This document shows, piece after piece, positions 2,904 through 14,054 of a stretch of 20,039 bases of DNA; within the stretch, counting starts at the first letter, position 1, and the number at the start of each line of letters is the position of its first letter. The position numbers and the translations under genes are program-made. Under the pieces are notes generated by a model, which was not told the origin of the DNA, ran no database searches, and saw only the letters and a program-made list of their open reading frames with translations. This DNA is from an uncultured virus (IMG/VR IMGVR_UViG_2061766007_000275) (taxonomy: Duplodnaviria; Heunggongvirae; Uroviricota; Caudoviricetes): the IMG/VR virus record IMGVR_UViG_2061766007_000275, one strand, 5' to 3'.

Positions 2904-3827
2904 ATGAAAATAAAAGATATAACTGGACAGAGGTTCGGTAAATTAACTGTCCTTCAAGCAACAAACGAAAGAAAGAATAGGCAAGTTGTATGGCTTTGTA
3001 AATGCGATTGTGGCAATGAAGTTAAAGTTGTCGGTGGAAGTTTAAGAAGTGGACATACACAATCTTGTGGTTGTCAACGATCGGAAACTAAAACAGAAGA
3101 TTTAACAAATCAGCATTTTGGTAAATTAACTGTAATATCTAAATCAGATTATAAAACAAAAAATCGTAGTGTTTATTGGAATTGTCAATGTGAATGTGGC
3201 AATACTCGTATAGTTCAAGCATCTGATTTAAGAACAAATAAAATTACAGAATGCACTGAATGTACTAAAAAAAATCGTATTGCTGAAAAAGGCGGTATAG
3301 GACCTATAAAAGATTTATCCGGAAAAAGATTTGGTAAATTAATTGTCCAAAGACCTACTAAGTTAAGAGATAATAGTGGACATATTATTTGGGAATGTTT
3401 ATGTGATTGTGGTGAAACTTGTTATATTTCTTCTATTAAACTAGTAACAAATAATACAATGTCTTGTGGTTGTTTAAGACGCACTTCTCATTCTTTAGGA
3501 GAAACTAAAATTGCTCAAATTTTATCAGATAATAAAATTGAATATATTCCTCAGTATAGTTTTGATGATTGTAAAAGTCCTAAAAATAGTTTATTACGAT
3601 TTGATTTTGCCTTGATAAAAGACAATAAAGTAATTAAATTGATTGAATATGATGGAGAACAACATTTCCAACCTTATGACTTTTTCGGTGGAGAAGAAGG
3701 ATTTTTGTATTTAAAAGAAAAAGACAATATAAAAAATGAATATTGTAAACAACACAATATTCCATTATTAAGAATTTCTTATTTAGAATTAAAGGATATA
3801 ACTTTGGAGAAAATATTAAATGGATAA
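2904..3827 (+). CDS. Free-standing putative homing endonuclease: three Cys-rich repeats plus Vsr/DUF559-like nuclease domain
   Basis: Three D(I/L)xxxxFGKLxV...WxCxC(D/E)CG...Cx(1-2)C repeats; C-terminal RFDF...LIEYDGEQHF...KNEYCKQHNIPLLRI. RBS AAGGAG; the stop overlaps the primase start. Confidence 0.8.
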   Translation: MKIKDITGQRFGKLTVLQATNERKNRQVVWLCKCDCGNEVKVVGGSLRSGHTQSCGCQRSETKTEDLTNQHFGKLTVISKSDYKTKNRSVYWNCQCECGNTRIVQASDLRTNKITECTECTKKNRIAEKGGIGPIKDLSGKRFGKLIVQRPTKLRDNSGHIIWECLCDCGETCYISSIKLVTNNTMSCGCLRRTSHSLGETKIAQILSDNKIEYIPQYSFDDCKSPKNSLLRFDFALIKDNKVIKLIEYDGEQHFQPYDFFGGEEGFLYLKEKDNIKNEYCKQHNIPLLRISYLELKDITLEKILNG

Positions 3828-4911: not shown

Positions 4912-6707
4912 ATATACAATTAATAAATGAGCCGATAAAAAATTTTACTACAATAGAACAAATACTATATAATAGAGGAATAACAGATAAGAAAGATATG
5001 TATAATTATCTTAATACCACAGATGCAGATATAAATAAACCTGAACTTTTTGGTATAGATAAATTAGAAGAAGCTGTAAAAGCTTTAGCATGGACATTAA
5101 TTAATGAAGAAGAAATTTTAGTTATAGTTGATGCTGATTGTGATGGTTTTACATCAGCAGCTTGTCTAATAAATTTTTGTTATCATTATTTCCCATCTGG
5201 GACTAGTAATCATCTACATTGGTTTTTGCATGATGGTAAGCAACATGGATTACATGATTGTATAGATACAGCAATGCAATATGATTTAATTATTTGCCCA
5301 GATTCTGCAAGTAATGATATAGAAGAACATCAGCGTTTGAGAGAAGCTGGAAAAACAGTTATTGTACTAGACCACCATGATATTGAAGGAGACTTAAGTC
5401 AAGATGCAATAATAATTAACAATCAAGCTTCATATTATCCAAATAAATTTTTATCAGGAGTTGGAGTAACTTGGCAATTCTGTAGATATATGGAACAATA
5501 TTTTACAGGAGAAAATAACTACACTGATAAACTTCTTGATTTAGTTGCTCTTGGTAATACAGCTGATATGATGAGTTTAAAAGAAATAGAAACAAAACAT
5601 TTAATAAATAAAGGCTTTGAACCAGATAATGTTGTTAATCCTTTTATTTATGGAATGTGGTGTAAAAACTCTTATAAACTTGGTGATAAAATAACATCTT
5701 GGGGTGCTGCATTTTATATTGCGCCATTGGTTAATGCAATAGTAAGAAGTGGTAGTCAAGAGGAAAAAGAACTTGTATTTAAGTCAATGCTTACAATGTG
5801 TGCTAATGAACAAATACCTTCCACTAAAAGAGGACATAAGCCAGACGAAATGGAAACCATATTGGCAGCCGCATTGAGAACTTGTACTAATGTGAAGAAT
5901 CATCAAACAAAAGCAGAAAAAGCTGGACTTGAATTACTTGAGAAGAGAATTGAAGACGAGCATATGTTAGATCATAAAGTTTTATTATTCTTGATGGAAC
6001 CTGGGCAAATCCATCCTAATATTGCGGGATTGGTAGCTAATAGAATTATGGGTAAATATCAACGTCCTGTATGTATATTAACTAAACAAATAAATATACA
6101 ATTTAAAAATGGTGAATCTATAAATGTAACCTCAGGAACCTATGCGGGCTCCGCTCGTGGGTGTGATATAACTGGTATTACAGAATTCAAATCTATCTGC
6201 TATGAAACTGGAGTTATTGAATGGGCTGTAGGTCATGAAGGAGCTTTTGGTCTTTGTATAAAAGAAGAAAATATAGAAAAGTTCTTAGAAAAGACAGATG
6301 AAATCTTAGCACAATATCCAGATGAAGCTTGCTATCATGTAGATTATCTCTGGGAAGGAGATCATGCAGATGGACAAATAATTGAAGATATTGCGGGCTA
6401 TGGATTCCTCTGGGGTAAAGATATGCCAGAGTCTAAGGTTGGAATAAAGAATTTAAAGATAACTAAAGATAACATTAGTCTAAAGAGTGCTGATAAGAAT
6501 CCTACATTATGTATCACTTTACCTGAGTGTGAGATTATAAAGTTTGGATCTTCAAAGGAAGAATATGAATCACTTCGACAAGAAGATGGTTTCACAACTA
6601 TTAATCTTGTAGGAACTTGTGGTAAGAATGAATGGATGGGTACAGTCACTCCACAGATTATGTTAGAAGATTATGAGATCGTAAATAGTTCCAAGTATTA
6701 CTTTTGA
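4908..6707 (+). CDS. recJ: RecJ-like ssDNA exonuclease (DHH family)
   Basis: DADCDG, GKQHGL, VLDHH, LSGVGV, ALGNTADMM, GSARG and GHEGAFG motifs. Confidence 0.92.
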   Translation: MNIQLINEPIKNFTTIEQILYNRGITDKKDMYNYLNTTDADINKPELFGIDKLEEAVKALAWTLINEEEILVIVDADCDGFTSAACLINFCYHYFPSGTSNHLHWFLHDGKQHGLHDCIDTAMQYDLIICPDSASNDIEEHQRLREAGKTVIVLDHHDIEGDLSQDAIIINNQASYYPNKFLSGVGVTWQFCRYMEQYFTGENNYTDKLLDLVALGNTADMMSLKEIETKHLINKGFEPDNVVNPFIYGMWCKNSYKLGDKITSWGAAFYIAPLVNAIVRSGSQEEKELVFKSMLTMCANEQIPSTKRGHKPDEMETILAAALRTCTNVKNHQTKAEKAGLELLEKRIEDEHMLDHKVLLFLMEPGQIHPNIAGLVANRIMGKYQRPVCILTKQINIQFKNGESINVTSGTYAGSARGCDITGITEFKSICYETGVIEWAVGHEGAFGLCIKEENIEKFLEKTDEILAQYPDEACYHVDYLWEGDHADGQIIEDIAGYGFLWGKDMPESKVGIKNLKITKDNISLKSADKNPTLCITLPECEIIKFGSSKEEYESLRQEDGFTTINLVGTCGKNEWMGTVTPQIMLEDYEIVNSSKYYF

Positions 6708-6764: not shown

Positions 6765-7943
6765 ATGGAACTAAATGAAAAGCAAAAAGAAGGTTTACAA
6801 TTAGCGATTGCTCGTTATAAAAATGGAGAAAAATATACTGTTATCGCAGGATACGCTGGTACTGGTAAGACAACTCTAGTTCATCATATTATTCAAGAAT
6901 TAGGAATAGCAGATGGTTTTGTTTGCCACGCTGCATTTACAGGTAAGGCAGCAGAAGTTTTAAGAAATAAAGGAAACAAAAATTGTATAACACTGCACAA
7001 GTTATTGTTTGATTCTTTCCCTCTTCCTCGTGGTGGCTTTAAGCGTGTACCTAAGGTGAAGTTAGATTATAAAGTGGTGGTTGTAGATGAGGTGTCAATG
7101 GCACCCATTGAGTTGGTAAATAGGTTGCTGAGTCATGACGTATACGTTTTGTTTCTCGGCGACCCGTTCCAGCTTCCGCCAATAGATAAGAACTCAGATA
7201 ATCATCTTCTTGATAATCCGCATATTTTTCTTGATGAAATTATGAGACAGGAAGCTGAATCAGAAATTATTCAGCTTACAATGGCAATTCGAGAAGGTAA
7301 ACAAATAAATACCTTTGATGGCAAGGATGTAAAAATCTTTGAACAAGAGGATTTAAGCACTGGAATGATGGAATGGGCAGACCAAATTATATGTGCCACT
7401 AACCGCATGAGATTTGGTTTAAATAAACAAATGAGAGAGATTAAGGGATTTGAAGGAATATATCCCGTTGAAGGAGATAAACTTATCTGCCTTAGAAATT
7501 ATTGGGAGACAGGCTCAGAAATAAATGATGATCCAATAGTTAATGGTACTATTGGATATCTTGAAGGCGGGTATGACACTACGATTCAGTATCCTAGATT
7601 TATTGTGAGAAATCCTGTTCCTGTATTATGCGGGAACCTGAGGATTCCTGAACTCAATGATACTTATAAGGATTTAATCCTTGATAAAAAAATGATAGGA
7701 GAAGGTGCAAAGACTCTTGAAAGCTTAACTGAATATCAGATACACAAGAATCGTACGGCACCGCCTACGCCTATGGAATTTGCTTATGGATACGCAATAA
7801 CTTATTGGAAGGCGCAAGGCAGCGAATGGAATAAAATGTTAATGGTTGAAGAAGATTTCCCTTATGATAGAGAAACTCATGCTCGAGCTATGTATACAGC
7901 AGCGACTAGAGCTAGAGATAAACTTGTCTGGATTAAAAATTAA
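6765..7943 (+). CDS. RecD/Dda-like SF1B DNA helicase
   Basis: GYAGTGKTT, AFTGKAA, TLHKLL, VVDEVSM, LGDPFQLPP, IMRQ, YAITYWKAQGSEW, YTAATRA. Confidence 0.9.
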   Translation: MELNEKQKEGLQLAIARYKNGEKYTVIAGYAGTGKTTLVHHIIQELGIADGFVCHAAFTGKAAEVLRNKGNKNCITLHKLLFDSFPLPRGGFKRVPKVKLDYKVVVVDEVSMAPIELVNRLLSHDVYVLFLGDPFQLPPIDKNSDNHLLDNPHIFLDEIMRQEAESEIIQLTMAIREGKQINTFDGKDVKIFEQEDLSTGMMEWADQIICATNRMRFGLNKQMREIKGFEGIYPVEGDKLICLRNYWETGSEINDDPIVNGTIGYLEGGYDTTIQYPRFIVRNPVPVLCGNLRIPELNDTYKDLILDKKMIGEGAKTLESLTEYQIHKNRTAPPTPMEFAYGYAITYWKAQGSEWNKMLMVEEDFPYDRETHARAMYTAATRARDKLVWIKN

Positions 7944-7957
7944 TTTTGTTAATTACT

Positions 7958-8002
7958 GGTCAAAAAGTTATAATTTACTGTTCATAAAATTGATATATAA
8001 TA
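7958..8002 (+). promoter_or_regulatory. Putative phage-specific promoter motif (copy 2)
   Basis: GGTCAA at 7958 and GATATATAAT at 7992 (34-nt offset), upstream of RBS AAGGAG and the ATG at 8025. Confidence 0.6.
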
Positions 8003-8024
8003 TCAAAAAAAGGAGCATACAAAT

Positions 8025-8810
8025 ATGAGTAAACTAATTGATTTAACTGGACAAGATTTTGGTTTTTGGCATGTAATTGAAAGAGCTGAAAATACTAAAG
8101 AAGGTAGAGCGCAATGGTTATGTTTATGTACAAAATGTGGAAAAACTATTAAACCAGTTCAAGGCGCTCATTTAAGGAGTGGTAGAAGCACTGCTTGCAC
8201 TAATTGTAGACAGAAAAAGATGGTAGCAGCTACAATTAAAGATGAAACTGGAAAAACGTATGGATTTTTGAAAGTTATAAGACAAGCCACCGAAGAAGAA
8301 AAACCTAGACATGATAGAACCGGAATTTATTGGAATTGTACTTGTACTAAATGTGGTAGAGAAAATGTAATTGTATTTGGAGATTATTTAAGAAAAGGAG
8401 AAACACAAAGTTGTGGATGTATATCTAGTATCAATGAAAGTAAAATATGTCAAATGCTTGATAATATGAATATTAAATATAAACAGCAACAAAGTTTTGA
8501 TGATTTAAAATCAAAACAAAGTAACTCTTATAATAACAATTTATTTTTTGATATTGGAGTATATAATGAAGATATATTAATTTATTTAATAGAGTATGAT
8601 GGTATTCAACATTTTGAAAAAGGGCATTTTTATGATAGTTATACTAGAACCCATCCCAATGATTTATTAAAAAATGAGTATTGTTTTAAACATAATATAC
8701 CTTTAATTCGTATACCTTTTAATGTAGAATATACTCCAAATGATTTAAAACTTGAAACTACACGATTTTTATTAACAAAAGAAAAAGAAGAACAATATTA
8801 CGCAATTTAA
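8025..8810 (+). CDS. Free-standing putative homing endonuclease: two Cys-rich repeats plus Vsr/DUF559-like domain
   Basis: Repeats IDLTGQDFG...WLCLCTKCG...CTNC and KDETGKTYG...WNCTCTKCG...SCGC; C-terminal FFDI...LIEYDGIQHF...KNEYCFKHNIPLIRIP. Confidence 0.8.
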   Translation: MSKLIDLTGQDFGFWHVIERAENTKEGRAQWLCLCTKCGKTIKPVQGAHLRSGRSTACTNCRQKKMVAATIKDETGKTYGFLKVIRQATEEEKPRHDRTGIYWNCTCTKCGRENVIVFGDYLRKGETQSCGCISSINESKICQMLDNMNIKYKQQQSFDDLKSKQSNSYNNNLFFDIGVYNEDILIYLIEYDGIQHFEKGHFYDSYTRTHPNDLLKNEYCFKHNIPLIRIPFNVEYTPNDLKLETTRFLLTKEKEEQYYAI

Positions 8811-8817
8811 AAAAACT

Positions 8818-8852
8818 TGCGGAAGCTAGATGGCTTCCGCATTTGACTTTTT
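8818..8852 (+). terminator. Intrinsic terminator
   Basis: 9-bp stem TGCGGAAGC (8818-8826) / GCTTCCGCA (8833-8841), followed by TTTGACTTTTT. Confidence 0.75.
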
Positions 8853-8871
8853 ATAAAAATTTTGTTATAAT
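8843..8871 (+). promoter_or_regulatory. SigA/sigma70-type promoter of the dnaE locus
   Basis: TTGACT (8843-8848), 17-nt spacer, TG-n-TATAAT (8866-8871); RBS AAGGAG at 8891-8896. Confidence 0.85.
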
Positions 8872-8903
8872 ATATATAGAAAAATGAAAAAAGGAGAAAA
8901 AAG

Positions 8904-8972
8904 ATGTTAAGGTTTGAAACTCACTCACATACACATTATAGCAATATTAGGACAAAATTATTAAAAACATAG
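8904..8972 (+). pseudogene. Detached original 5' end of dnaE (22-aa mini-ORF, first strand of the PHP domain)
   Basis: Translates to MLRFETHSHTHYSNIRTKLLKT*. HxHTxYS is the PHP N-terminal metal-binding motif, and SNIR matches the start of the DnaE body at 10032. It has its own promoter and RBS. Missed by the ORF track. Confidence 0.85.
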
Positions 8973-8994
8973 ATTTAAAATTTTATATATTATA
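8950..8994 (+). promoter_or_regulatory. Putative phage-specific promoter motif (copy 3)
   Basis: GGACAA at 8950 and TATAT at 8984 (34-nt offset); begins exactly where similarity to dnaE stops. Confidence 0.6.
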
Positions 8995-9008
8995 GAAAAT
9001 ATAATATA

Positions 9009-9086
9009 NNNNNNNNNNNNNNNNNNNNNNNNNNNNNNNNNNNNNNNNNNNNNNNNNNNNNNNNNNNNNNNNNNNNNNNNNNNNNN
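9009..9086. other. Assembly gap (78 N)
   Basis: Run of n; should contain the RBS and start codon of the third endonuclease. Confidence 0.99.
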
Positions 9087-9974
9087 GGACAAAAAATTAA
9101 TCATTTAACTTTTTTAAAATTTTTAGGTAATAGTTATTGGGAATGTCAATGTGATTGTGGTAATATTATTAAAATTAGAAAAGATCAAGTTACACGTTCT
9201 CGATATCCTAAAAAAGATTGTGGTTGCGGGTTGCCTTCTCGTTTAGGTAGTAAATTAAAAGATGAAACTGGAAATAGATATGGGAAATTAATAGTTTTAT
9301 ATCGAACTAATGATTTAAGACCTGGTGAAGCTAGATGGCATTGTAAATGTGATTGTGGCAATGAATGTGATGTATCTGGTGTTCATTTAAGAAATGGTTC
9401 TGTTCAATCTTGTGGTTGTTTAAGATACGAAAGTCATAATGGAATAGATGAAACTGGAAAAAGATATGGAAAATTATTAGTTTTATATCGAACAGATAAA
9501 AATATTAAGTCAGATGGCACTCATATTTTTTGGCATTGTAAATGTGATTGCGGCAATGAATGTGATGTTAATGGTAGCTATTTAAGGCAAGGCATTTCAA
9601 CTAATTGTGGATGTGAACGAAGTGTTGGAGAGTTGAAAATTAAAAAGATATTGGATGAGAATAAAATTTTATATCAAAGAGAATATAATTTTCCTGATTT
9701 ATTAGGTGTTGGAGGTGGCAAACTAAGATTTGATTTTGGAATTTTAGATCAAAATAATAATCTTTTGTATTTAATAGAATATGATGGTATTCAACATTTT
9801 AAATTAAATTGTTTTGGAAATGAACAAGAATATTTTAATACATTAAAGCAACATGATAAATTAAAAGATGACTATTGTAAAGAGCATAATATACCATTGA
9901 TAAGAATTCCTTATACAAAATTTAAAACTCTAACAATAAAAGATCTTTTATTAAATAAAGGAGGTGACGATTAA
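9087..9974 (+). CDS. Putative homing endonuclease: at least three Cys-rich repeats plus Vsr/DUF559-like domain; true start lies in the gap
   Basis: The frame of track ORF 9231..9974 is open back to the gap: GQKINHLTFLKFLGNSYWECQCDCGNIIKIRKDQVTRSRYPKKDCGC. C-terminal RFDF...LIEYDGIQHF...KDDYCKEHNIPLIRIP. Confidence 0.82.
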   Translation, partial: GQKINHLTFLKFLGNSYWECQCDCGNIIKIRKDQVTRSRYPKKDCGCGLPSRLGSKLKDETGNRYGKLIVLYRTNDLRPGEARWHCKCDCGNECDVSGVHLRNGSVQSCGCLRYESHNGIDETGKRYGKLLVLYRTDKNIKSDGTHIFWHCKCDCGNECDVNGSYLRQGISTNCGCERSVGELKIKKILDENKILYQREYNFPDLLGVGGGKLRFDFGILDQNNNLLYLIEYDGIQHFKLNCFGNEQEYFNTLKQHDKLKDDYCKEHNIPLIRIPYTKFKTLTIKDLLLNKGGDD

Positions 9975-9979
9975 AAATA

Positions 9980-12900
9980 ATGGGAACTAAAAGATTTGAA
10001 GTACATGCACACACCCATTATTCTTAGTGTGTCAAATATTAGATTGTTAGATTGTATCAACAAACCTAAAGATTTAATTAATAGAGCGGTTGAGTTAGGT
10101 TTAGCAGGAATTGCCCTAACCGACCATGAGTGCCTAGCTGGGCATCCTGAAGTAAATATATATTATAATGATGTGATAAAGAAAGAACATCCTGATTTTA
10201 AAGTTGCATTAGGAAATGAAATTTATTTATGTCCTAATCGTGATAAGGATCAAAGTTTTTATCATTTTATTTTAATAGCAAAAAATAAGACAGGTCATCG
10301 AGCATTACGTGAGCTGTCTTCTACTGCGTGGTTAAATATCTTTGAAACAAAAAGAATGGAAAGAGTTGTCACAACATATGACGATCTCAATAAAATAGTT
10401 AAAAAGTATCCGGGTTCATTAATAGCAACCACCGCATGTATTGGTGGAGAAGTGTCAAAGCAAACATTAGCTCTCATTTCGGCGGAAAAGGCAGGTGACA
10501 CGCGCGCACAGGAAGCCGCCCGCTATGATATAGGAACTTTTATTGAAAGATGTCAGGATTGGTTTGGTGATGACTTTTATATTGAGTGTGCTCCGGGAAT
10601 GAGTCCAGAACAGCAGGCAGTAAATAAAAGATTGGTTAGTATTGCAAACTGTTTTGACATTAAAATGGTAATAGGAACTGACGCACATTATTTAAAGAAA
10701 GAAGATAGATATGTTCATAAGGCATATCTTAAGTCAAAAGAAGGAGAAAGAGAAGTAGATAAGTTTTATGAATTCTCTTATCTTCAGTCAGAAGAAGATA
10801 TATTGACAAATCTCAATATTAAAGATAAGTATGAAGAATTATGTAATAATAGTATGGAGATTTGGAATAAGATAGAAGTTTGGGATATGCGGCATCCGCA
10901 ACAGATCCCAAAAGTTGAAGTAGAAGATTTTCCTAAGCCAGTATATGATCAAGATGATGTAAAAACTATATCTACTCCAATTAAACCACTTAAAATGGTT
11001 TTTAATACTTTTGAAAAAACTTATCCAACATTATGGAGTATGAGATGCTCAGATGATAAGGTTGAAAGATGTTGGGTAAATAAATGTTTAAACAAGCTAA
11101 AAGAAATAAATAAATATAATGAAACTTATTTATCTCGTCTTGAGGAAGAAGCAAGAGTAAAGAAAATTATAGGCGAAAAGCTTCAAACAAATATGTTCTC
11201 ATATCCTTTAACACTTCAACATTATTGTGATTTGTTTTGGAAGTGCGGAAGTATCGTTGGTGCGGGCAGAGGTTCATCGTGTTCAGGACTTAATCATTAT
11301 TTATTAGGAATAACTCAGCTTGATCCTATTGAATGGGAACTTCCATTTTGGAGATATCTGAATGAAGAAAGAACTGAATTAGGTGATATTGACTTAGACT
11401 TATGCCCAAGCAAGCGTCCGCTGATATTAAATGAGATAAAGAAAGAAAGAGGAAAAAACTTCATTCCGGAAATTGATGATAGCGCAGCCCGCAGTAACTT
11501 AGGTTGTACACTGATTGCAACTTTTGGCACAGAAAGTACAAGGTCTGCGATTCTAACAGCCTGCCGCGGTTATAGAAGTGAAGAATGCCCTCAAGGTATA
11601 GATACAGATATAGCAAAGTATTTATCTTCACTTATCCCCGAAGAAAGAGGATTTGTTTGGAGTATAGATGATATTATAAATGGTAATGAAGAGAAAGGCC
11701 GTAAGCCGTTAACATCATTCATACAAGAAGTTGAGCAGTATCCGGGATTGTTAACAATCATTCAGGGTATTGATGGTCTAGTAAATAAGAGATCAAGTCA
11801 CGCATCAGGTGTTATCTTGTTTGATGAAGATCCTTTTGAGTTTGGTTGTTTTATGAGAACTCCTAATTGGGAAATCATCACACAGTATGATTTACATATG
11901 GATGAAGCTTGTGGCTTAACGAAATATGACTTTCTTGTAACTGAAATTCAAGATAAAATTGCAATCACGATTAATCTTCTACAAAAGCATGGGGAAATTG
12001 AACAAGATTTAAGCTTAAGAGAAATTTATGACAAGTATCTCAATCCGAATGTTCTTCCAATAGAAGATATGAAGTATTGGAAAAGATTTTATAATATGGA
12101 TGTGATTAATGTCTTCCAGTTTGATTCACCGGTTGGTAAACAAGCAGCAAAAAAGATTAAACCTATCTCAATATTAGAGTTAGCAGATGCAAATGGTTTG
12201 ATGCGATTAATGACTGCGGAAAAAGGTGAAATAACTCCAATGGATAAGTATGTTATGTTTAAAAATAACATTGAGTTATGGTATAATGAAATGAGAGAAT
12301 ATGGGTTAACAAAAGAAGAAATGGAAGTTGTTAAGCCTTACTTCTTAAAGTCACATGGAGTACCTCCAAGCCAAGAGCAAATGATGAAGATGTTAATGGA
12401 TCCAGATATATGTGGGTTCACGCTCGCGGAAGCTAATACCGCACGTAAGATAGTTGGTAAGAAGCAGATGAACAAGATTCCCGCATTAAGAGATAAGGTA
12501 TTAGAACAAGCAAAGTCTCCATGTCTTGGACATTATATTTGGAAGTGCGGTATTGGTCCTCAGATGGGTTATTCATTCTCTATCATTCATGCTCTTGCAT
12601 ATTCGTTCATTGGTTTCCAAACAGTTTATCTTGCAACAAATTGGGATCCGATTTATTGGGATACAGCTTGTCTAATAGTTAATAGTTGTTCAACTGATGA
12701 AGAAGATGAAGATGATGATATAATAGATGTTGAGGAAGATGAGAAAGAAGAACAGATTGAAGAAGAGGAAGTAGTTGAAGTTAGTGCAAAGAAGAAAACG
12801 AAGACAGTTGATTATGGTAAGAATGCAAAGGCATTAGGTGAAATTATCTCGAACAACATTAAAGTCTCACTAATTGATATTAATAAGTCAAGTCTTCAGT

Positions 12901-14054
12901 TTGAACCTGATGTAGAGGATCAGCAGATATTATTTGGATTTAGAGCATTAACAGGTGTTAATGTTGATATAATAAAAGAAATAGTAGCAAAACGTCCGTT
13001 CGTAAGTCTTACAGATTTTATGAATAGATGCAAAATAAAAAAGCCAGCAATGATCTCATTGATTAAGGCGGGAGCTTTTGATAATCTTGAGGAAGAAGTA
13101 AATCTTGCGAAGGTTCTTGGTGTCGAACCACGTATTGCCGCAATGATGTTATATATTTGGAGAGTAAGTGAGCCAAAGACAAACATTAATCTTCAGAGTT
13201 TTAATGGTTTATTAGAGAAAGATTTAGTTCCGAAAGAAGATTTGGACTTTGAAATAAGAGTATTTCACTTCAACAAAGCAATGAAGTATTTTAAAAAAAA
13301 TGTTGAAGGAACTCCAGTTTATTATTTTGGTCAAGATAATATGTATGATTTTTATGCAAAATATTTTGATTTAGATCAAATCATTCAAGTAAATAATTAT
13401 TTTGGTGTACCTCAAAAATATTGGGATAAGGTTTATACTAAAACAATGGATAAAGCAAGAGATTGGTTAAAAGATAATAAACAAGCAGTTTTAAATGCAA
13501 TAAATTATATGAACTTCAAAGAACTTTGGGATAAATATGCAAATGGTACAGTAGCAAGTTGGGAAATAGATAGTCTTGGATTCTATTATCATGAACATGA
13601 TTTAGCAAAAGTAAATATGTCAAAATATGGCATAGTTGATTATCAGACTCTTCCTGAGACACCAGAAGTTGACTATTACTTCACAAAAGGTAAGTTAAGC
13701 ATCCCGATCTTTAAGACAAGTATTATAATTGGAACAGTAATAGCAAAAGATGATAAGAGATCAACAGTATCTATCTTAACAACAAGTGGAGTTGTTGATG
13801 TTAAGTTCTCAAAAGAGTACTATGCAAATTATAAAAGACAAATCTCTGAAGTCGGAGCAGATGGTAAAAAGAAAGTTATTGAAAAAGGTTGGTTTAGAAG
13901 GGGAGTTCAGATTATGGTAACTGGCTTCCGCAGAGAAGATACTTTTGTTGCGAAGTCATATAGCAAGACAGCAACACATCAACTTTATAAAATAACTGAA
14001 GTAGATGATAATGGAAATATATGTTTAGTACACGATAGGAGTAAAACTGCATGA
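9980..14054 (+). CDS. dnaE: DNA polymerase III alpha (DnaE) with a stop and frame break at 10022-10031
   Basis: 9980-10027 encodes MGTKRFEVHAHTHYS*. The body resumes in the +1 frame at 10032 (SNIRLLDCINKP). PHP motifs TDHE, GNEIY, TACIGG, TDAHY; polymerase motifs GRGS, GDIDLD, HASGV, KYDFL; C-terminal OB-like region. The track start at 9996 lacks the HxH motif. Confidence 0.93.

What the first reader, a model, noticed from the sequence alone, without database searches (positions are those of the whole stretch)
8843..10042. Endonuclease cassette that displaced the dnaE start and carries a replacement N-terminus
Seen: the dnaE promoter and RBS drive only MLRFETHSHTHYSNIR-TKLLKT*. Similarity to dnaE ends exactly where the GGACAA motif begins (8950). 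About 1.1 kb later a diverged second copy (RFEVHAHTHYS versus RFETHSHTHYS, with different codons) follows the endonuclease. The endonuclease's last codons (KGGDD) contain AGGAGGTG, a ready-made RBS, although about 15 nt from ATG 9980. AATATTAG flanks both ends, and fusing the two copies gives a perfect dnaE. Inference: an intron-less homing element invaded an essential conserved motif and compensates by bringing a foreign 5' gene end. Precise excision at DNA or RNA level through the 8-bp repeat is an alternative. The 22-aa upstream peptide could also complement the PHP barrel in trans.
Basis: partly seen in the sequence, partly recalled or inferred. Interest (0 to 1): 0.85.

Follow-up and report, generated by a model that had tools for sequence, protein, structure and literature searches.

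The report
Homing endonuclease cassette splitting phage dnaE
A selfish endonuclease gene has inserted into the start of a phage DNA polymerase gene, bringing a spare gene start that a stop codon plus four bases cuts off from the rest, so the ribosome must probably hop over this gap or restart after it.

Summary
At 8904-8972 the dnaE promoter and RBS drive only a 22-codon remnant. A Vsr-like (EDxHD-type) homing endonuclease gene (HEG) follows, then a second, diverged dnaE start (9980-10024).

It ends TCT TAG, and four more bases (TGTG) put SNIRLLD... in the +1 frame.

The N run hides no intron. Contigs bridge it with 38-39 bases holding an RBS and the HEG start codon.

The same "HxHxxYS, TCY, stop, 0-5 nt" interruption occurs in 25 distinct dnaE contexts from viral and metagenome contigs. 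Nine have this HEG directly upstream; 13 show no such HEG in the DNA held upstream. The last sense codon is always TCT or TCC, against 8 of 63 in uninterrupted genes. Nine of the 25 have no start codon from which the dnaE body could be translated.

A different, HNH-type HEG goes with a one-base insertion that makes CTT TGA, which I recall as the prfB +1 shift site, in the same motif.

The architecture matches the T4 mobA/gene 60 cassette. My best reading is a HEG cassette whose short insert shields the target site and is decoded by a short stop-hop. In this window a restart at GTG 10029 (a split protein) is a serious rival. No decoding step has been shown.

The parts
8025..8810 (+). Second, paralogous free-standing endonuclease gene ('heg_up' type, 261 aa), upstream of the dnaE promoter
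   Evidence: 40% identical to the cassette HEG. Matches PHROG 374/559/9084. Orthologues (47-69% identity) lie upstream of uninterrupted dnaE in 9 loci; L053 and L067 carry a more distant paralogue (about 40%).
8818..8841 (+). Terminator-like hairpin ending the upstream gene
   Evidence: 10 pairs followed by a T-rich tail.
8843..8871 (+). dnaE promoter (TTGACT, 17 nt spacer, TG-extended TATAAT)
   Evidence: 11 of 12 matches. Nearly the same sequence precedes the uninterrupted dnaE of L001. Depth spike at 8814-8927 in all four runs.
8904..8972 (+). Copy 1: the resident dnaE 5' end, cut after SNIR, plus a 6-codon tail (TKLLKT) and TAG
   Evidence: Homologous remnants occur in L158, L010 and L081.
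8943..8950 (+). Left copy of the 8-nt repeat AATATTAG (codons N-I-R)
8951..10031 (+). The inserted cassette: left end GACAAAA..., HEG with its own RBS, spare dnaE 5' end, stop and spacer
   Evidence: The left end aligns with L158, L010 and L081. The right end is set by comparison with uninterrupted relatives.
9009..9086 (.). Run of 78 N; in bridging contigs it stands for 38-39 bases holding the HEG's RBS and start
9087..9974 (+). Homing endonuclease ORF (visible part 295 aa plus TAA). It has three Cys-rich beta modules and a C-terminal Vsr-like nuclease domain
   Evidence: PHROG 374/559/9084. The model's residues 178-293 match 3r3p_B (I-Bth0305I catalytic domain; Z 9.8, rmsd 3.2, 93 aligned) and 1cw0_A (Vsr; Z 9.7).
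9959..9966 (+). AGGAGGTG inside the last HEG codons. It lies 13-15 nt before ATG 9980, and the HEG stop lies 5 nt before that ATG
   Evidence: Whether it serves as an RBS or the ORFs are translationally coupled is inference.
9980..10027 (+). Copy 2 mini-ORF MGTKRFEVHAHTHYS plus TAG (an N-terminal extension and a homologous replacement of the dnaE 5' end)
10022..10034 (+). Junction: TCT (candidate take-off), TAG, TGTG, TCA (candidate landing). GTG 10029-10031 is a possible restart codon
10035..10042 (+). Right copy of the 8-nt repeat AATATTAG
10032..14054 (+). Body of dnaE (1340 codons; PHP, DNA_pol3_alpha, finger and HHH_6 domains)
   Evidence: It is 83% identical to L001.

Best explanation
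A free-standing Vsr-like (EDxHD-type) homing endonuclease cassette homed into the 5' end of a phage dnaE gene.

Layout:
- The resident start survives as a 22-codon stump (copy 1).
- The cassette then supplies the HEG and a diverged spare 5' end, MGTK-RFEVHAHTHYS (copy 2).
- Directly after the Ser codon comes a stop plus 4 nt, and then the gene resumes at SNIRLLD.

Proposed role of the insert (inferred): it sits at or next to the HEG's target in the conserved HTHYSNIRLLD-coding DNA, so the carrier genome is not cut by its own enzyme.

Proposed decoding (inferred): the polymerase is made by ribosomes that start at ATG 9980. With peptidyl-tRNA-Ser on UCU and UAG in the A site, they slide 10 nt and re-pair at UCA 10032. 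This short 'stop-hop' would give a normal ...HYSNIRLLD... protein.

What is shown and what is inferred:
- Shown: the architecture, its recurrence, its linkage to the HEG, and the codon constraints.
- Inferred: the target site, the immunity role and the hop.
For: (1) Architecture.

(2) HEG identity: PHROG homing endonuclease families. The nuclease domain matches I-Bth0305I (Z 9.8) and Vsr (Z 9.7).

(3) Recurrence: 25 distinct dnaE contexts carry H.H..Y, TCY, a stop and 0-5 nt before N[IL]RL.D. Of the 80 relatives fetched by protein likeness, 73 are uninterrupted, with fixed spacing.

(4) Linkage to the HEG: an orthologue of this HEG (53% identity or more) ends within about 60 nt of the junction in 9 of 25 interrupted contexts. 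In the unbiased set it is found in 2 of 3 interrupted lineages and 0 of 76 others (Fisher p about 0.001).

(5) The mini-ORF is under selection: both His, the Tyr and the Ser are kept in 25 of 25. The codon after the gap has drifted to Phe, Ala or Thr in 9 of 25, although that Ser is invariant in uninterrupted genes. So the upstream Ser appears to be the one in use.

(6) Take-off codon: it is TCT or TCC in all 5 lineages found without a codon filter, against 8 of 63 in the background. Otherwise identical scans of the viral collection gave 13 stretches for TCY, 0 for TCR and 0 for AGY.

(7) Landing codon: it is TCY in 13 of 25, and this position was not set by the search pattern.

(8) Start codons: 9 of 25 contexts have no ATG, GTG or TTG in the dnaE frame before the Asn codon. 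In L136 a second stop (TAA) lies in the dnaE frame inside the gap, so a +1 shift at the take-off site and an upstream start are both ruled out.

(9) Gap lengths: gaps of 2 to 8 nt fall in all three frames. No single frameshift explains this; a hop does.

(10) A parallel case: a different, HNH-type HEG lies directly upstream in 5 of 5 dnaE genes that carry a one-base insertion making CTT TGA in the same motif.

(11) Precedent: the MobA element of T4-like phages has a C-terminal tail on the upstream ORF, a HEG, an N-terminal extension plus a homologous replacement region (67-81% identical to the parent), then a bypass cassette with stops or frameshifts. Its HEG is often lost while the bypass is kept (passages of bioRxiv 10.1101/2022.08.31.505936).
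Against: - In this window a GTG (10029-31) lies directly before the landing codon. ATG or GTG sits there in 6 of 25 contexts, including TAATG and TGATG overlaps that look like classical stop-start coupling.
- L088, L121 and L155 place TGA after the take-off codon. L088 and L155 read TGA as Trp, and L121 has an in-frame TGA in dnaE, so for them there is no stop at that point.
- L156 has TAG there, yet its HEG has 10 in-frame TAG codons at Gln positions.
- The window's landing codon UCA is not an exact match to UCU. In 4 contexts the landing codon mismatches at its first base (GCT twice, ACT, ACC).
- No conserved RNA structure was found around the junction (z from -3.7 to +1.0, mostly near 0).
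- The junction lies in a loop after beta-strand 1 of the PHP domain, where model confidence is lower. A break or a small insertion may be tolerated there.
- The 25 contexts share ancestry, so the statistical tests overstate independence. Searches imposed TATTCY on most of them.
- No protein, RNA or cleavage data exist.
Confidence: 0.45

Rival explanations
1. Split gene with termination and restart. The 15-codon ORF ends at TAG. The same ribosome restarts at GTG 10029, one base later, and makes a body that begins (M)SNIRLLD. The 15-aa peptide carrying HxH..YS then binds non-covalently as strand 1 of the PHP barrel. This is a 'genes in pieces' solution, as recalled for Aeh1 nrdA/mobE and T4 genes 39/60.
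For: - GTG or ATG lies directly before the landing codon in 6 of 25 contexts. These include the window, TAG GTG in L031, TAATG in L125 and TGATG in L088, L121 and L155.
- L088 and L155 read TGA as Trp (L121 has an in-frame TGA in dnaE) and so have no stop for a hop, yet all three have an ATG.
- The break lies in a loop of lower model confidence after strand 1.
- The mini-ORF peptide is conserved.
- The preprint passages mention split proteins that reassemble after HEG insertion.
Against: - 9 of 25 contexts have no ATG, GTG or TTG available. L010 and L122 have only an in-frame stop and then the Ser/Thr and Asn codons.
- The model gives no reason for the last sense codon to be limited to TCY.
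- It gives no reason for a second Ser-like codon after the gap.
- No Shine-Dalgarno motif precedes GTG 10029.
- A 15-aa peptide acting as a stable subunit of a replicase would be unusual (inference).
Confidence: 0.3
2. Frameshift or readthrough that leaves a small insertion. In the window this would be a +1 shift at UCU UAG U, giving ...HYS-SVS-NIR.... In-frame cases would use stop readthrough and 3n+2 cases a -1 shift.
For: - 16 of 25 gaps are 3n+1 (13 of 4 nt, 3 of 7 nt), the class a +1 shift at a 'shifty stop' would serve.
- The sister system with CTT TGA looks like a true +1 shift site.
- The loop may accept extra residues.
Against: - tRNA-Ser cannot re-pair from UCU to CUU (established codon-anticodon pairing rules).
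- L136 has a stop in the +1 frame inside the gap.
- One conserved family would need three different mechanisms.
- The motif shows no length variation in 63 distinct uninterrupted N-termini.
Confidence: 0.1
3. The N-terminal strand is dispensable. dnaE is translated independently from ATG 10005 or GTG 10029 without the HxH strand, and both small ORFs are inert relics of the insertion.
For: - The dnaE frame is open from 9996 and contains TTG 9996, ATG 10005 and GTG 10029.
- From recall, PHP metal ligands are not needed for polymerisation in some DnaE enzymes.
Against: - The mini-ORF keeps its start codon and all invariant residues in 25 of 25 diverged contexts, which relics would not.
- 9 of 25 contexts have no start codon for an independent body.
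Confidence: 0.08
4. Self-splicing intron, or precise DNA or RNA excision between the two AATATTAG repeats, restoring copy 1 fused to the dnaE body.
For: - The 8-nt repeat is real.
- A 5' exon ending in U (CATTAT) and an element ending in G (..TGTG) would fit group I rules (my reading).
- True group I-like introns interrupt these dnaE genes elsewhere: L031 3727-4097 gives a weak Rfam hit of 16.7 bits.
Against: - No intron hit in window 8000-11000 or in the gapless L010 2800-7972 at E up to 10.
- The non-ORF parts are AT-rich and short. The gap hides only 38-39 bases.
- L031 and 12 other contexts have the interruption with no upstream exon or HEG.
- No matching joint appears among the joints listed.
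Confidence: 0.02

Closest known systems
T4-type MobA / gene 60 mobile cassette (HEG plus translational bypass). Bonocora et al. 2011 was seen only as reference 19 and in passages of bioRxiv 10.1101/2022.08.31.505936
   Same: - A HEG is inserted inside an essential replication gene.
- The upstream ORF gains a short new tail.
- The downstream part gains an N-terminal extension plus a diverged copy of the displaced coding sequence (67% identical here; 67-81% there).
- A stop or frameshift block follows, ending at a codion-matched landing site: the codon there is like the one before the block.
- Relatives have lost or degraded the HEG but keep the interruption.
- The interruption is thought to shield the target.
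   Different: - The host gene is dnaE, not topoisomerase.
- The HEG is Vsr-like, not HNH.
- The gap is 2-8 nt, not 20-50 nt.
- There is no take-off stem-loop and no room for a long nascent-peptide signal (only 15 codons).
- The displaced part is the whole 5' end, so the upstream product is a useless stump rather than a subunit.
- Bypass is not shown here.
I-Bth0305I, prototype of the EDxHD (Vsr-like) homing endonucleases (PMC3239194, passages; PDB 3r3p)
   Same: - The C-terminal nuclease domain has the same fold (Z 9.8, rmsd 3.2, 93 of 98 residues aligned).
- It is phage-borne and targets a conserved replication or repair gene.
- The family includes free-standing members.
   Different: - I-Bth0305I sits in a group I intron of recA and has NUMOD/HTH DNA-binding modules.
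- This enzyme is free-standing and has three Cys-rich beta modules.
- Sequence likeness is too low for phmmer.
Synthetic 'stop-hops' in E. coli: matched codons flanking a stop, so that 9 nt specify one residue (described in PMC5009743, passages)
   Same: L010 (TCT TAG TCT) has exactly this configuration. The window has the same scheme with 4 extra bases.
   Different: Those were low-efficiency events in reporter constructs. The review passages state that no natural in-frame stop-hop was known. Here the configuration is a conserved natural feature, but it is untested.
HEG-split 'genes in pieces': Aeh1 nrdA/mobE and T4-like gp43A/B (recalled; touched on in a passage)
   Same: A free-standing HEG splits an essential gene, and new stop and start codons yield two products that reassemble.
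   Different: Here one piece would be only 15 aa, and most relatives lack the new start codon.
prfB-type +1 frameshift site CUU UGA (recalled)
   Same: The sister dnaE alleles L095, L104, L164, L166 and L168 carry exactly CTT TGA after a one-base insertion.
   Different: This site is absent from the window. No Shine-Dalgarno stimulator lies upstream in those loci.

Membership tests
EDxHD / Vsr-like homing endonucleases | Vsr-like nuclease fold in the C-terminal domain | tested here: met
   AlphaFold model (mean pLDDT 80; blocks covering 181-290 mostly 83-96, one at 74). The best structural matches are 3r3p_B (Z 9.8) and 1cw0_A (Z 9.7) over residues 178-293.
EDxHD / Vsr-like homing endonucleases | Conserved catalytic Glu/Asp/His/Asp residues | tested here: inconclusive
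   D216, E231, H237 and D257 are invariant, and D233 nearly so, among 11 homologues. I made no residue-by-residue superposition on I-Bth0305I.
EDxHD / Vsr-like homing endonucleases | N-terminal NUMOD/HTH DNA-binding modules | tested here: not met
   Pfam finds no NUMOD. The model shows three beta-rich repeats with CxCxCG...CGC motifs.
EDxHD / Vsr-like homing endonucleases | Site-specific cleavage of the HEG-less allele | not testable with these tools
   Needs enzyme assays.
HEG plus bypass cassette (MobA / gene 60 kind) | HEG inside an ORF, flanked by a new C-terminal tail upstream and an N-terminal extension plus homologous replacement region downstream | tested here: met
   TKLLKT tail; MGTK plus RFEVHAHTHYS; 22 of 33 nt identical to copy 1.
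HEG plus bypass cassette (MobA / gene 60 kind) | Take-off codon followed by a stop, with a matching landing codon at the end of the insert | tested here: inconclusive
   The window has UCU UAG ... UCA (synonymous, not identical). Across the family, take-off and landing codons are identical in 10 of 25 contexts, and the landing codon is TCY (cognate to the same tRNA-Ser) in 13 of 25.
HEG plus bypass cassette (MobA / gene 60 kind) | Take-off stem-loop and nascent-peptide signal | tested here: not met
   No consistent structure. Only 15 codons precede the site.
HEG plus bypass cassette (MobA / gene 60 kind) | Sequence homology to the MobA element | tested here: not met
   The HEG's fold is Vsr-like rather than HNH, and the host gene differs. 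This is an analogue, not a member.
HEG plus bypass cassette (MobA / gene 60 kind) | Bypass shown at the protein level | not testable with these tools
   No RNA holder or proteome was available.
Group I intron | Conserved catalytic core (P3-P9) | tested here: not met
   No Rfam Intron_gpI match in the window or in L010 at E up to 10. A true intron elsewhere in L031 does give a weak hit. The non-coding flanks are about 80 and 60 nt of AT-rich DNA.
Bacterial DNA polymerase III alpha (DnaE) | PHP, pol3 alpha, finger and HhH domains | tested here: met
   Pfam PF02811, PF07733, PF17657 and PF14579, all above their cut-offs.

The most novel reading that the evidence does not exclude
Rumen and gut phage dnaE genes carry a natural, widespread family of very short programmed translational bypasses ('stop-hops' over 2-8 nt). 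tRNA-Ser takes off from UCY next to a stop and lands on a Ser-like codon. These inserts spread with, and protect against, a Vsr-like homing endonuclease. A second, HNH-type endonuclease has independently driven a prfB-like CUU UGA +1 shift 15 nt away in the same motif. Recoding-dependent indels would then be a general way to shield endonuclease targets in codons too conserved to change.
Probability: 0.4. Interest if true: 0.9.

Novelty: new variant of a known kind. Interest (0 to 1): 0.8.

Why it matters
Efficient bypassing in T4 gene 60 long stood as an isolated curiosity. The review passages I read (PMC5009743) say that shorter natural counterparts with matched codons were long presumed but not known.

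- This finding gives about 25 natural variants of one site, with different gap lengths, stops, landing codons and even genetic codes. That is close to a ready-made mutational series for testing the rules of short hops against restart.
- It suggests that homing endonucleases aimed at invariant protein motifs select for indels that only recoding can repair. That would link mobile-DNA conflict to the evolution of non-standard decoding.
- In practice, gene callers will truncate or split these polymerase genes.

I found no paper on this in full-text searches. The supplements of the MobA preprint are closed and could list further host genes.

Tried and rejected
- Intron: no group I or II match in Rfam for window 8000-11000 or L010 2800-7972.
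- Whole genome: none is held for this window.
- PDB by sequence: no relative of the HEG. Foldseek on the whole model gave only noisy rows: the best E was 0.004, and the rows with the highest probabilities were PD-(D/E)xK nucleases. VIA-align then found the Vsr fold.
- RNA evidence: no RNA holder was listed, so expression, transcript ends and editing could not be examined.
- Cassette-free variant: none of the 15 joints listed (9 more not shown) links 8950 to 10043. Contigs drop rare variants, so this shows nothing either way.
- Conserved take-off hairpin: not found. Two 7-nt gaps (window and L151) can pair with the upstream His-Thr codons, but their z-scores disagree (-0.6 for the window, -3.2 for L151).
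- ATG made by CAT GCN in the +1 frame as a general start: present in only 6 of the 16 contexts with a 3n+1 gap, so dropped.
- Special tRNAs: five related phage records carry 8-25 tRNA matches. ARAGORN on 15 of the fetched loci found Ser(GCU) and Ser(UGA), but no Ser(GGA) and no odd anticodon loops. One record has a tRNA(CUA). This did not help decide. The window itself has no tRNA.
- Peptide-plus-body complex prediction: not run, because the peptide is shorter than the tool's 30-residue minimum.
- Earlier findings of this scan: none on record.
- Pattern scan: 27 stretches, of which only 2 were dnaE (L031 and L033, the latter being L010).
- Pattern scan: 27 stretches, of which 3 were false (L133, L154, L145).
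- Pattern scan: 13 stretches, of which 8 were false.

Full report
**What the window holds**

The window is the replication module of a low-GC (33%) phage-like genome. It encodes DnaB, RecJ, an SF1 helicase, DnaE, guanylate kinase, NrdD/NrdG and dUTPase. No whole genome is held. The nearest annotated phage DNA is distant: 12 records, all 60-80% identical over at most 6% of the query. The endonuclease part hits genes annotated as homing, HNH or EDxHD endonucleases. The dnaE part hits SPbeta-like Staphylococcus phages.

**The observation**

- A terminator (8818-8841) and a near-consensus promoter (8843-8871) are followed by an RBS and ATG 8904.
- The ORF reads MLRFETHSHTHYSNIRTKLLKT and stops at TAG 8970-72.
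- L001 is 83% identical in DnaE. It has almost the same promoter and an uninterrupted MCKRFEVHSHTMYSNLRLLDC.... So copy 1 is the resident gene start, cut after the NIR codons.
- An endonuclease ORF runs from the N run to TAA 9972-74.
- ATG 9980 opens MGTKRFEVHAHTHYS. Over RFE..HYS, 22 of 33 nt match copy 1.

The spare 5' end is therefore a separate 15-codon ORF.

**The gap and the intron idea**

- Contigs of three runs bridge 9009-9086 with 38-39 bases. L158, whose endonuclease is 96% identical, reads through it. The hidden piece is a Shine-Dalgarno motif, an ATG and six codons of the endonuclease.
- Rfam finds no intron in the window or in L010, a gapless relative with the same architecture. 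By contrast, a genuine intron-like interruption elsewhere in the dnaE of L031 does give a weak group I hit.
- The junction TAG TGTG shows no listed difference in contigs of two other studies (not all rows were shown).

**The endonuclease**

- It matches PHROG families annotated as homing or HNH endonucleases.
- A model of it (mean pLDDT 80) has three Cys-rich beta modules and a C-terminal domain.
- The best structural matches of that domain are the I-Bth0305I catalytic domain (3r3p_B; Z 9.8, rmsd 3.2, 93 aligned) and Vsr (1cw0_A; Z 9.7).
- It therefore works like an EDxHD-type enzyme, but it lacks that family's NUMOD/HTH modules (passages of PMC3239194).
- Two paralogues lie in the window, at 2904-3827 and 8025-8810.

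**Relatives**

L010 (57% DnaE identity) has the same layout:
- a stump VDRFEIHSHTHYSNIR plus a tail
- a 55%-identical endonuclease
- MSLSRFEVHSHTHYS, then TAG, then TCT AAT ATA AGA

L081 has the same layout with a decayed endonuclease. The DNA just after the stump is homologous in the window, L158, L010 and L081, so the cassette has a single origin.

L031 has its own promoter and MSGRMEIHSHTHYS, TAG, GTG, TCA AAT..., with no endonuclease and no stump.

Of 80 loci fetched by DnaE likeness:
- 73 are uninterrupted
- 4 are interrupted at the Ser codon (L081, L088, L090, L117)
- 2 carry a one-base insertion further on (L095, L104)
- 1 lacks the N-terminus

A pattern for TAT TCY plus a stop-like triplet, 0-8 nt and the N.RL.D.IN codons gave 13 of 13 true dnaE hits in the viral collection. 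It gave 24 of 27 in the metagenome collection. After removing repeats there are 25 distinct contexts.

**Anatomy of the 25 junctions**

| Feature | Counts |
|---|---|
| Upstream residues | both His, Tyr and Ser kept in all 25 |
| Last sense codon | TCT or TCC in all 25 |
| Next triplet | TAG 11, TAA 8, TGA 6 |
| Gap between the two flanking codons | 2 nt (1), 3 (2), 4 (13), 5 (4), 6 (1), 7 (3), 8 (1) |
| Codon before Asn | TCT 11, TCA 3, TCC 2, TTT 5, GCT 2, ACT 1, ACC 1 |

Most contexts were found with a pattern that fixed TCY, so I checked this constraint separately.
- The five lineages found without any codon filter (window, L010, L081, L088, L117) all have TCY.
- In 63 distinct uninterrupted N-termini the Ser codon is TCY in only 8.
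- Twin scans of the viral collection with TCR or AGY in place of TCY returned 0 and 0 stretches, against 13.
- The landing codon was not fixed by the pattern and is TCY in 13 of 25.

All these tests treat lineages as independent, which they are not.

**Linkage to the endonuclease**

- An orthologue (53% identity or more) ends within about 60 nt of the junction in 9 of 25 contexts. Three more have weak or remote family hits and 13 have none. L141 offers only 782 nt upstream.
- In the unbiased 80-locus set, the orthologue is adjacent only in interrupted loci. Eleven uninterrupted loci carry family members further upstream: nine are of the paralogous 'heg_up' type, and L053 and L067 are more distant (Fisher p about 0.001 with duplicates merged).
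- A different, HNH/EndoVII-type endonuclease lies directly upstream in all 5 dnaE genes that have a single T inserted to give ...RLL CTT TGA Y.... In these, Asp and the rest lie in the +1 frame (the other 8 pattern hits were not dnaE).
- Two unrelated endonucleases, each tied to its own frame-breaking insertion in the same invariant motif, is the strongest argument that the insertions are target-site shields.

**How the gene is read**

The mini-ORF is conserved as protein, while the codon after the gap has drifted to Phe, Ala or Thr in 9 of 25 contexts. That Ser is invariant in uninterrupted genes. The upstream piece is therefore translated and used.

Evidence that ribosomes must come through from the mini-ORF in many contexts:
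- Nine contexts have no ATG, GTG or TTG from which the body could start.
- L010 and L122 have only an in-frame stop between the pieces.
- L136 has stops in two frames inside its 7-nt gap.

Gaps fall in all three frames. One mechanism covers all of them: peptidyl-tRNA-Ser leaves UCY while a stop waits in the A site, then re-pairs a few bases on. L010 (UCU UAG UCU) is exactly the synthetic 'stop-hop' layout described in PMC5009743 (passages). Those passages also say that no natural in-frame case was known.

Evidence against a hop as the sole mechanism:
- Six contexts, the window among them, have ATG or GTG right before the landing codon. TAATG and TGATG look like stop-start coupling.
- L088, L121 and L155 have TGA after the take-off codon, and L088 and L155 read TGA as Trp. 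For them a restart is the simpler reading.
- A model of the uninterrupted N-terminus places the junction in a loop after strand 1, with pLDDT about 65 for residues 11-20. A nick or a small insertion may be tolerated there.
- No conserved RNA structure surrounds the site.

For the window itself I put the hop at about 0.45 and a restart at GTG 10029 at about 0.3. Both could operate.

**Comparison with what is known**

The closest system is the MobA element of T4-like phages. In the passages I read (bioRxiv 10.1101/2022.08.31.505936) it has:
- a short new tail on the upstream ORF
- the endonuclease
- an N-terminal extension that overlaps the endonuclease ORF
- a replacement region 67-81% identical to the displaced sequence
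- a bypass cassette with stops or frameshifts, ending at the landing codon
- relatives that lost the endonuclease but kept the bypass

The dnaE cassette matches this point for point. It differs in host gene, endonuclease fold, gap length (2-8 nt against 20-50 nt), and in lacking a take-off hairpin or a long nascent-peptide signal. It is an analogue, not a member.

Four full-text searches found no paper on it.

**Verdict**

The finding is real and richer than described. The cassette reading is well supported. The immunity role is supported by association only. The decoding step is open and can be tested directly.

Noticed in passing
L095 about 2490-2510; L104 about 1430-1450; L164, L166, L168 around 1501: dnaE genes with one extra T giving ...RLL CTT TGA Y..., so the rest of the gene lies in the +1 frame. 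I recall CTT TGA as the prfB +1 shift site. All 5 have an HNH/EndoVII-type endonuclease gene directly upstream.
   Followed up: partly
L119 1121-1945, L132 621-1445, L156 1514-2392 (minus strand), L122, L048, L063: The endonuclease genes of related phages carry 1-10 in-frame TAG codons at conserved Gln positions, which points to TAG=Gln recoding. The first 410 dnaE codons of the same loci have none, or one in L132. The endonuclease may therefore be made only once TAG is being suppressed.
   Followed up: partly
L088/L090 1534-2439 and dnaE; L155: In-frame TGA at conserved Trp positions in both the endonuclease and DnaE. These phages appear to read TGA as Trp.
   Followed up: partly
window, all 17 long ORFs: None of the 17 long ORFs ends in TAG (13 end in TAA, 4 in TGA). 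The only TAG 'stops' are those of the copy-1 stump and the copy-2 mini-ORF. The window's phage might itself belong to a TAG-recoding lineage.
   Followed up: no
window 2904-3827: A third endonuclease paralogue (307 aa, 37% identical to the cassette enzyme) lies between the helicase gene and the next ORF.
   Followed up: no
L031 3727-4097; L010 about 5270-6010 and about 6890-7720: Further interruptions of dnaE at the ...FRFLN / KER.E..DID active-site region. In L031 it is about 290 nt of GC-richer, structured DNA with a weak group I hit (16.7 bits). In L010 there are insertions carrying ORFs, one of them GIY-YIG-like.
   Followed up: partly
window 8841-8883: The promoter stretch is held by many unrelated contigs in all four runs laid (depth 160-620 against 3-40 beside it). 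It looks like a promoter consensus shared by many phage genes or genomes.
   Followed up: no
window 10009-10032; L151 junction: In two of the 7-nt gaps, the extra bases can pair with the upstream His-Thr codons (ACACAC/GTGTGT in the window, ACCCA/TGGGT in L151). This would place the Ser codon and the first bases of the stop (UA in the window) in a hairpin loop. The fold z-scores disagree (-0.6 for the window, -3.2 for L151).
   Followed up: partly
G002 (L188 1956-2301), G003 (L191 519-807 and 1250-1321): Related large phage records encode tmRNA-like genes. One also encodes a tRNA with a CUA anticodon.
   Followed up: no
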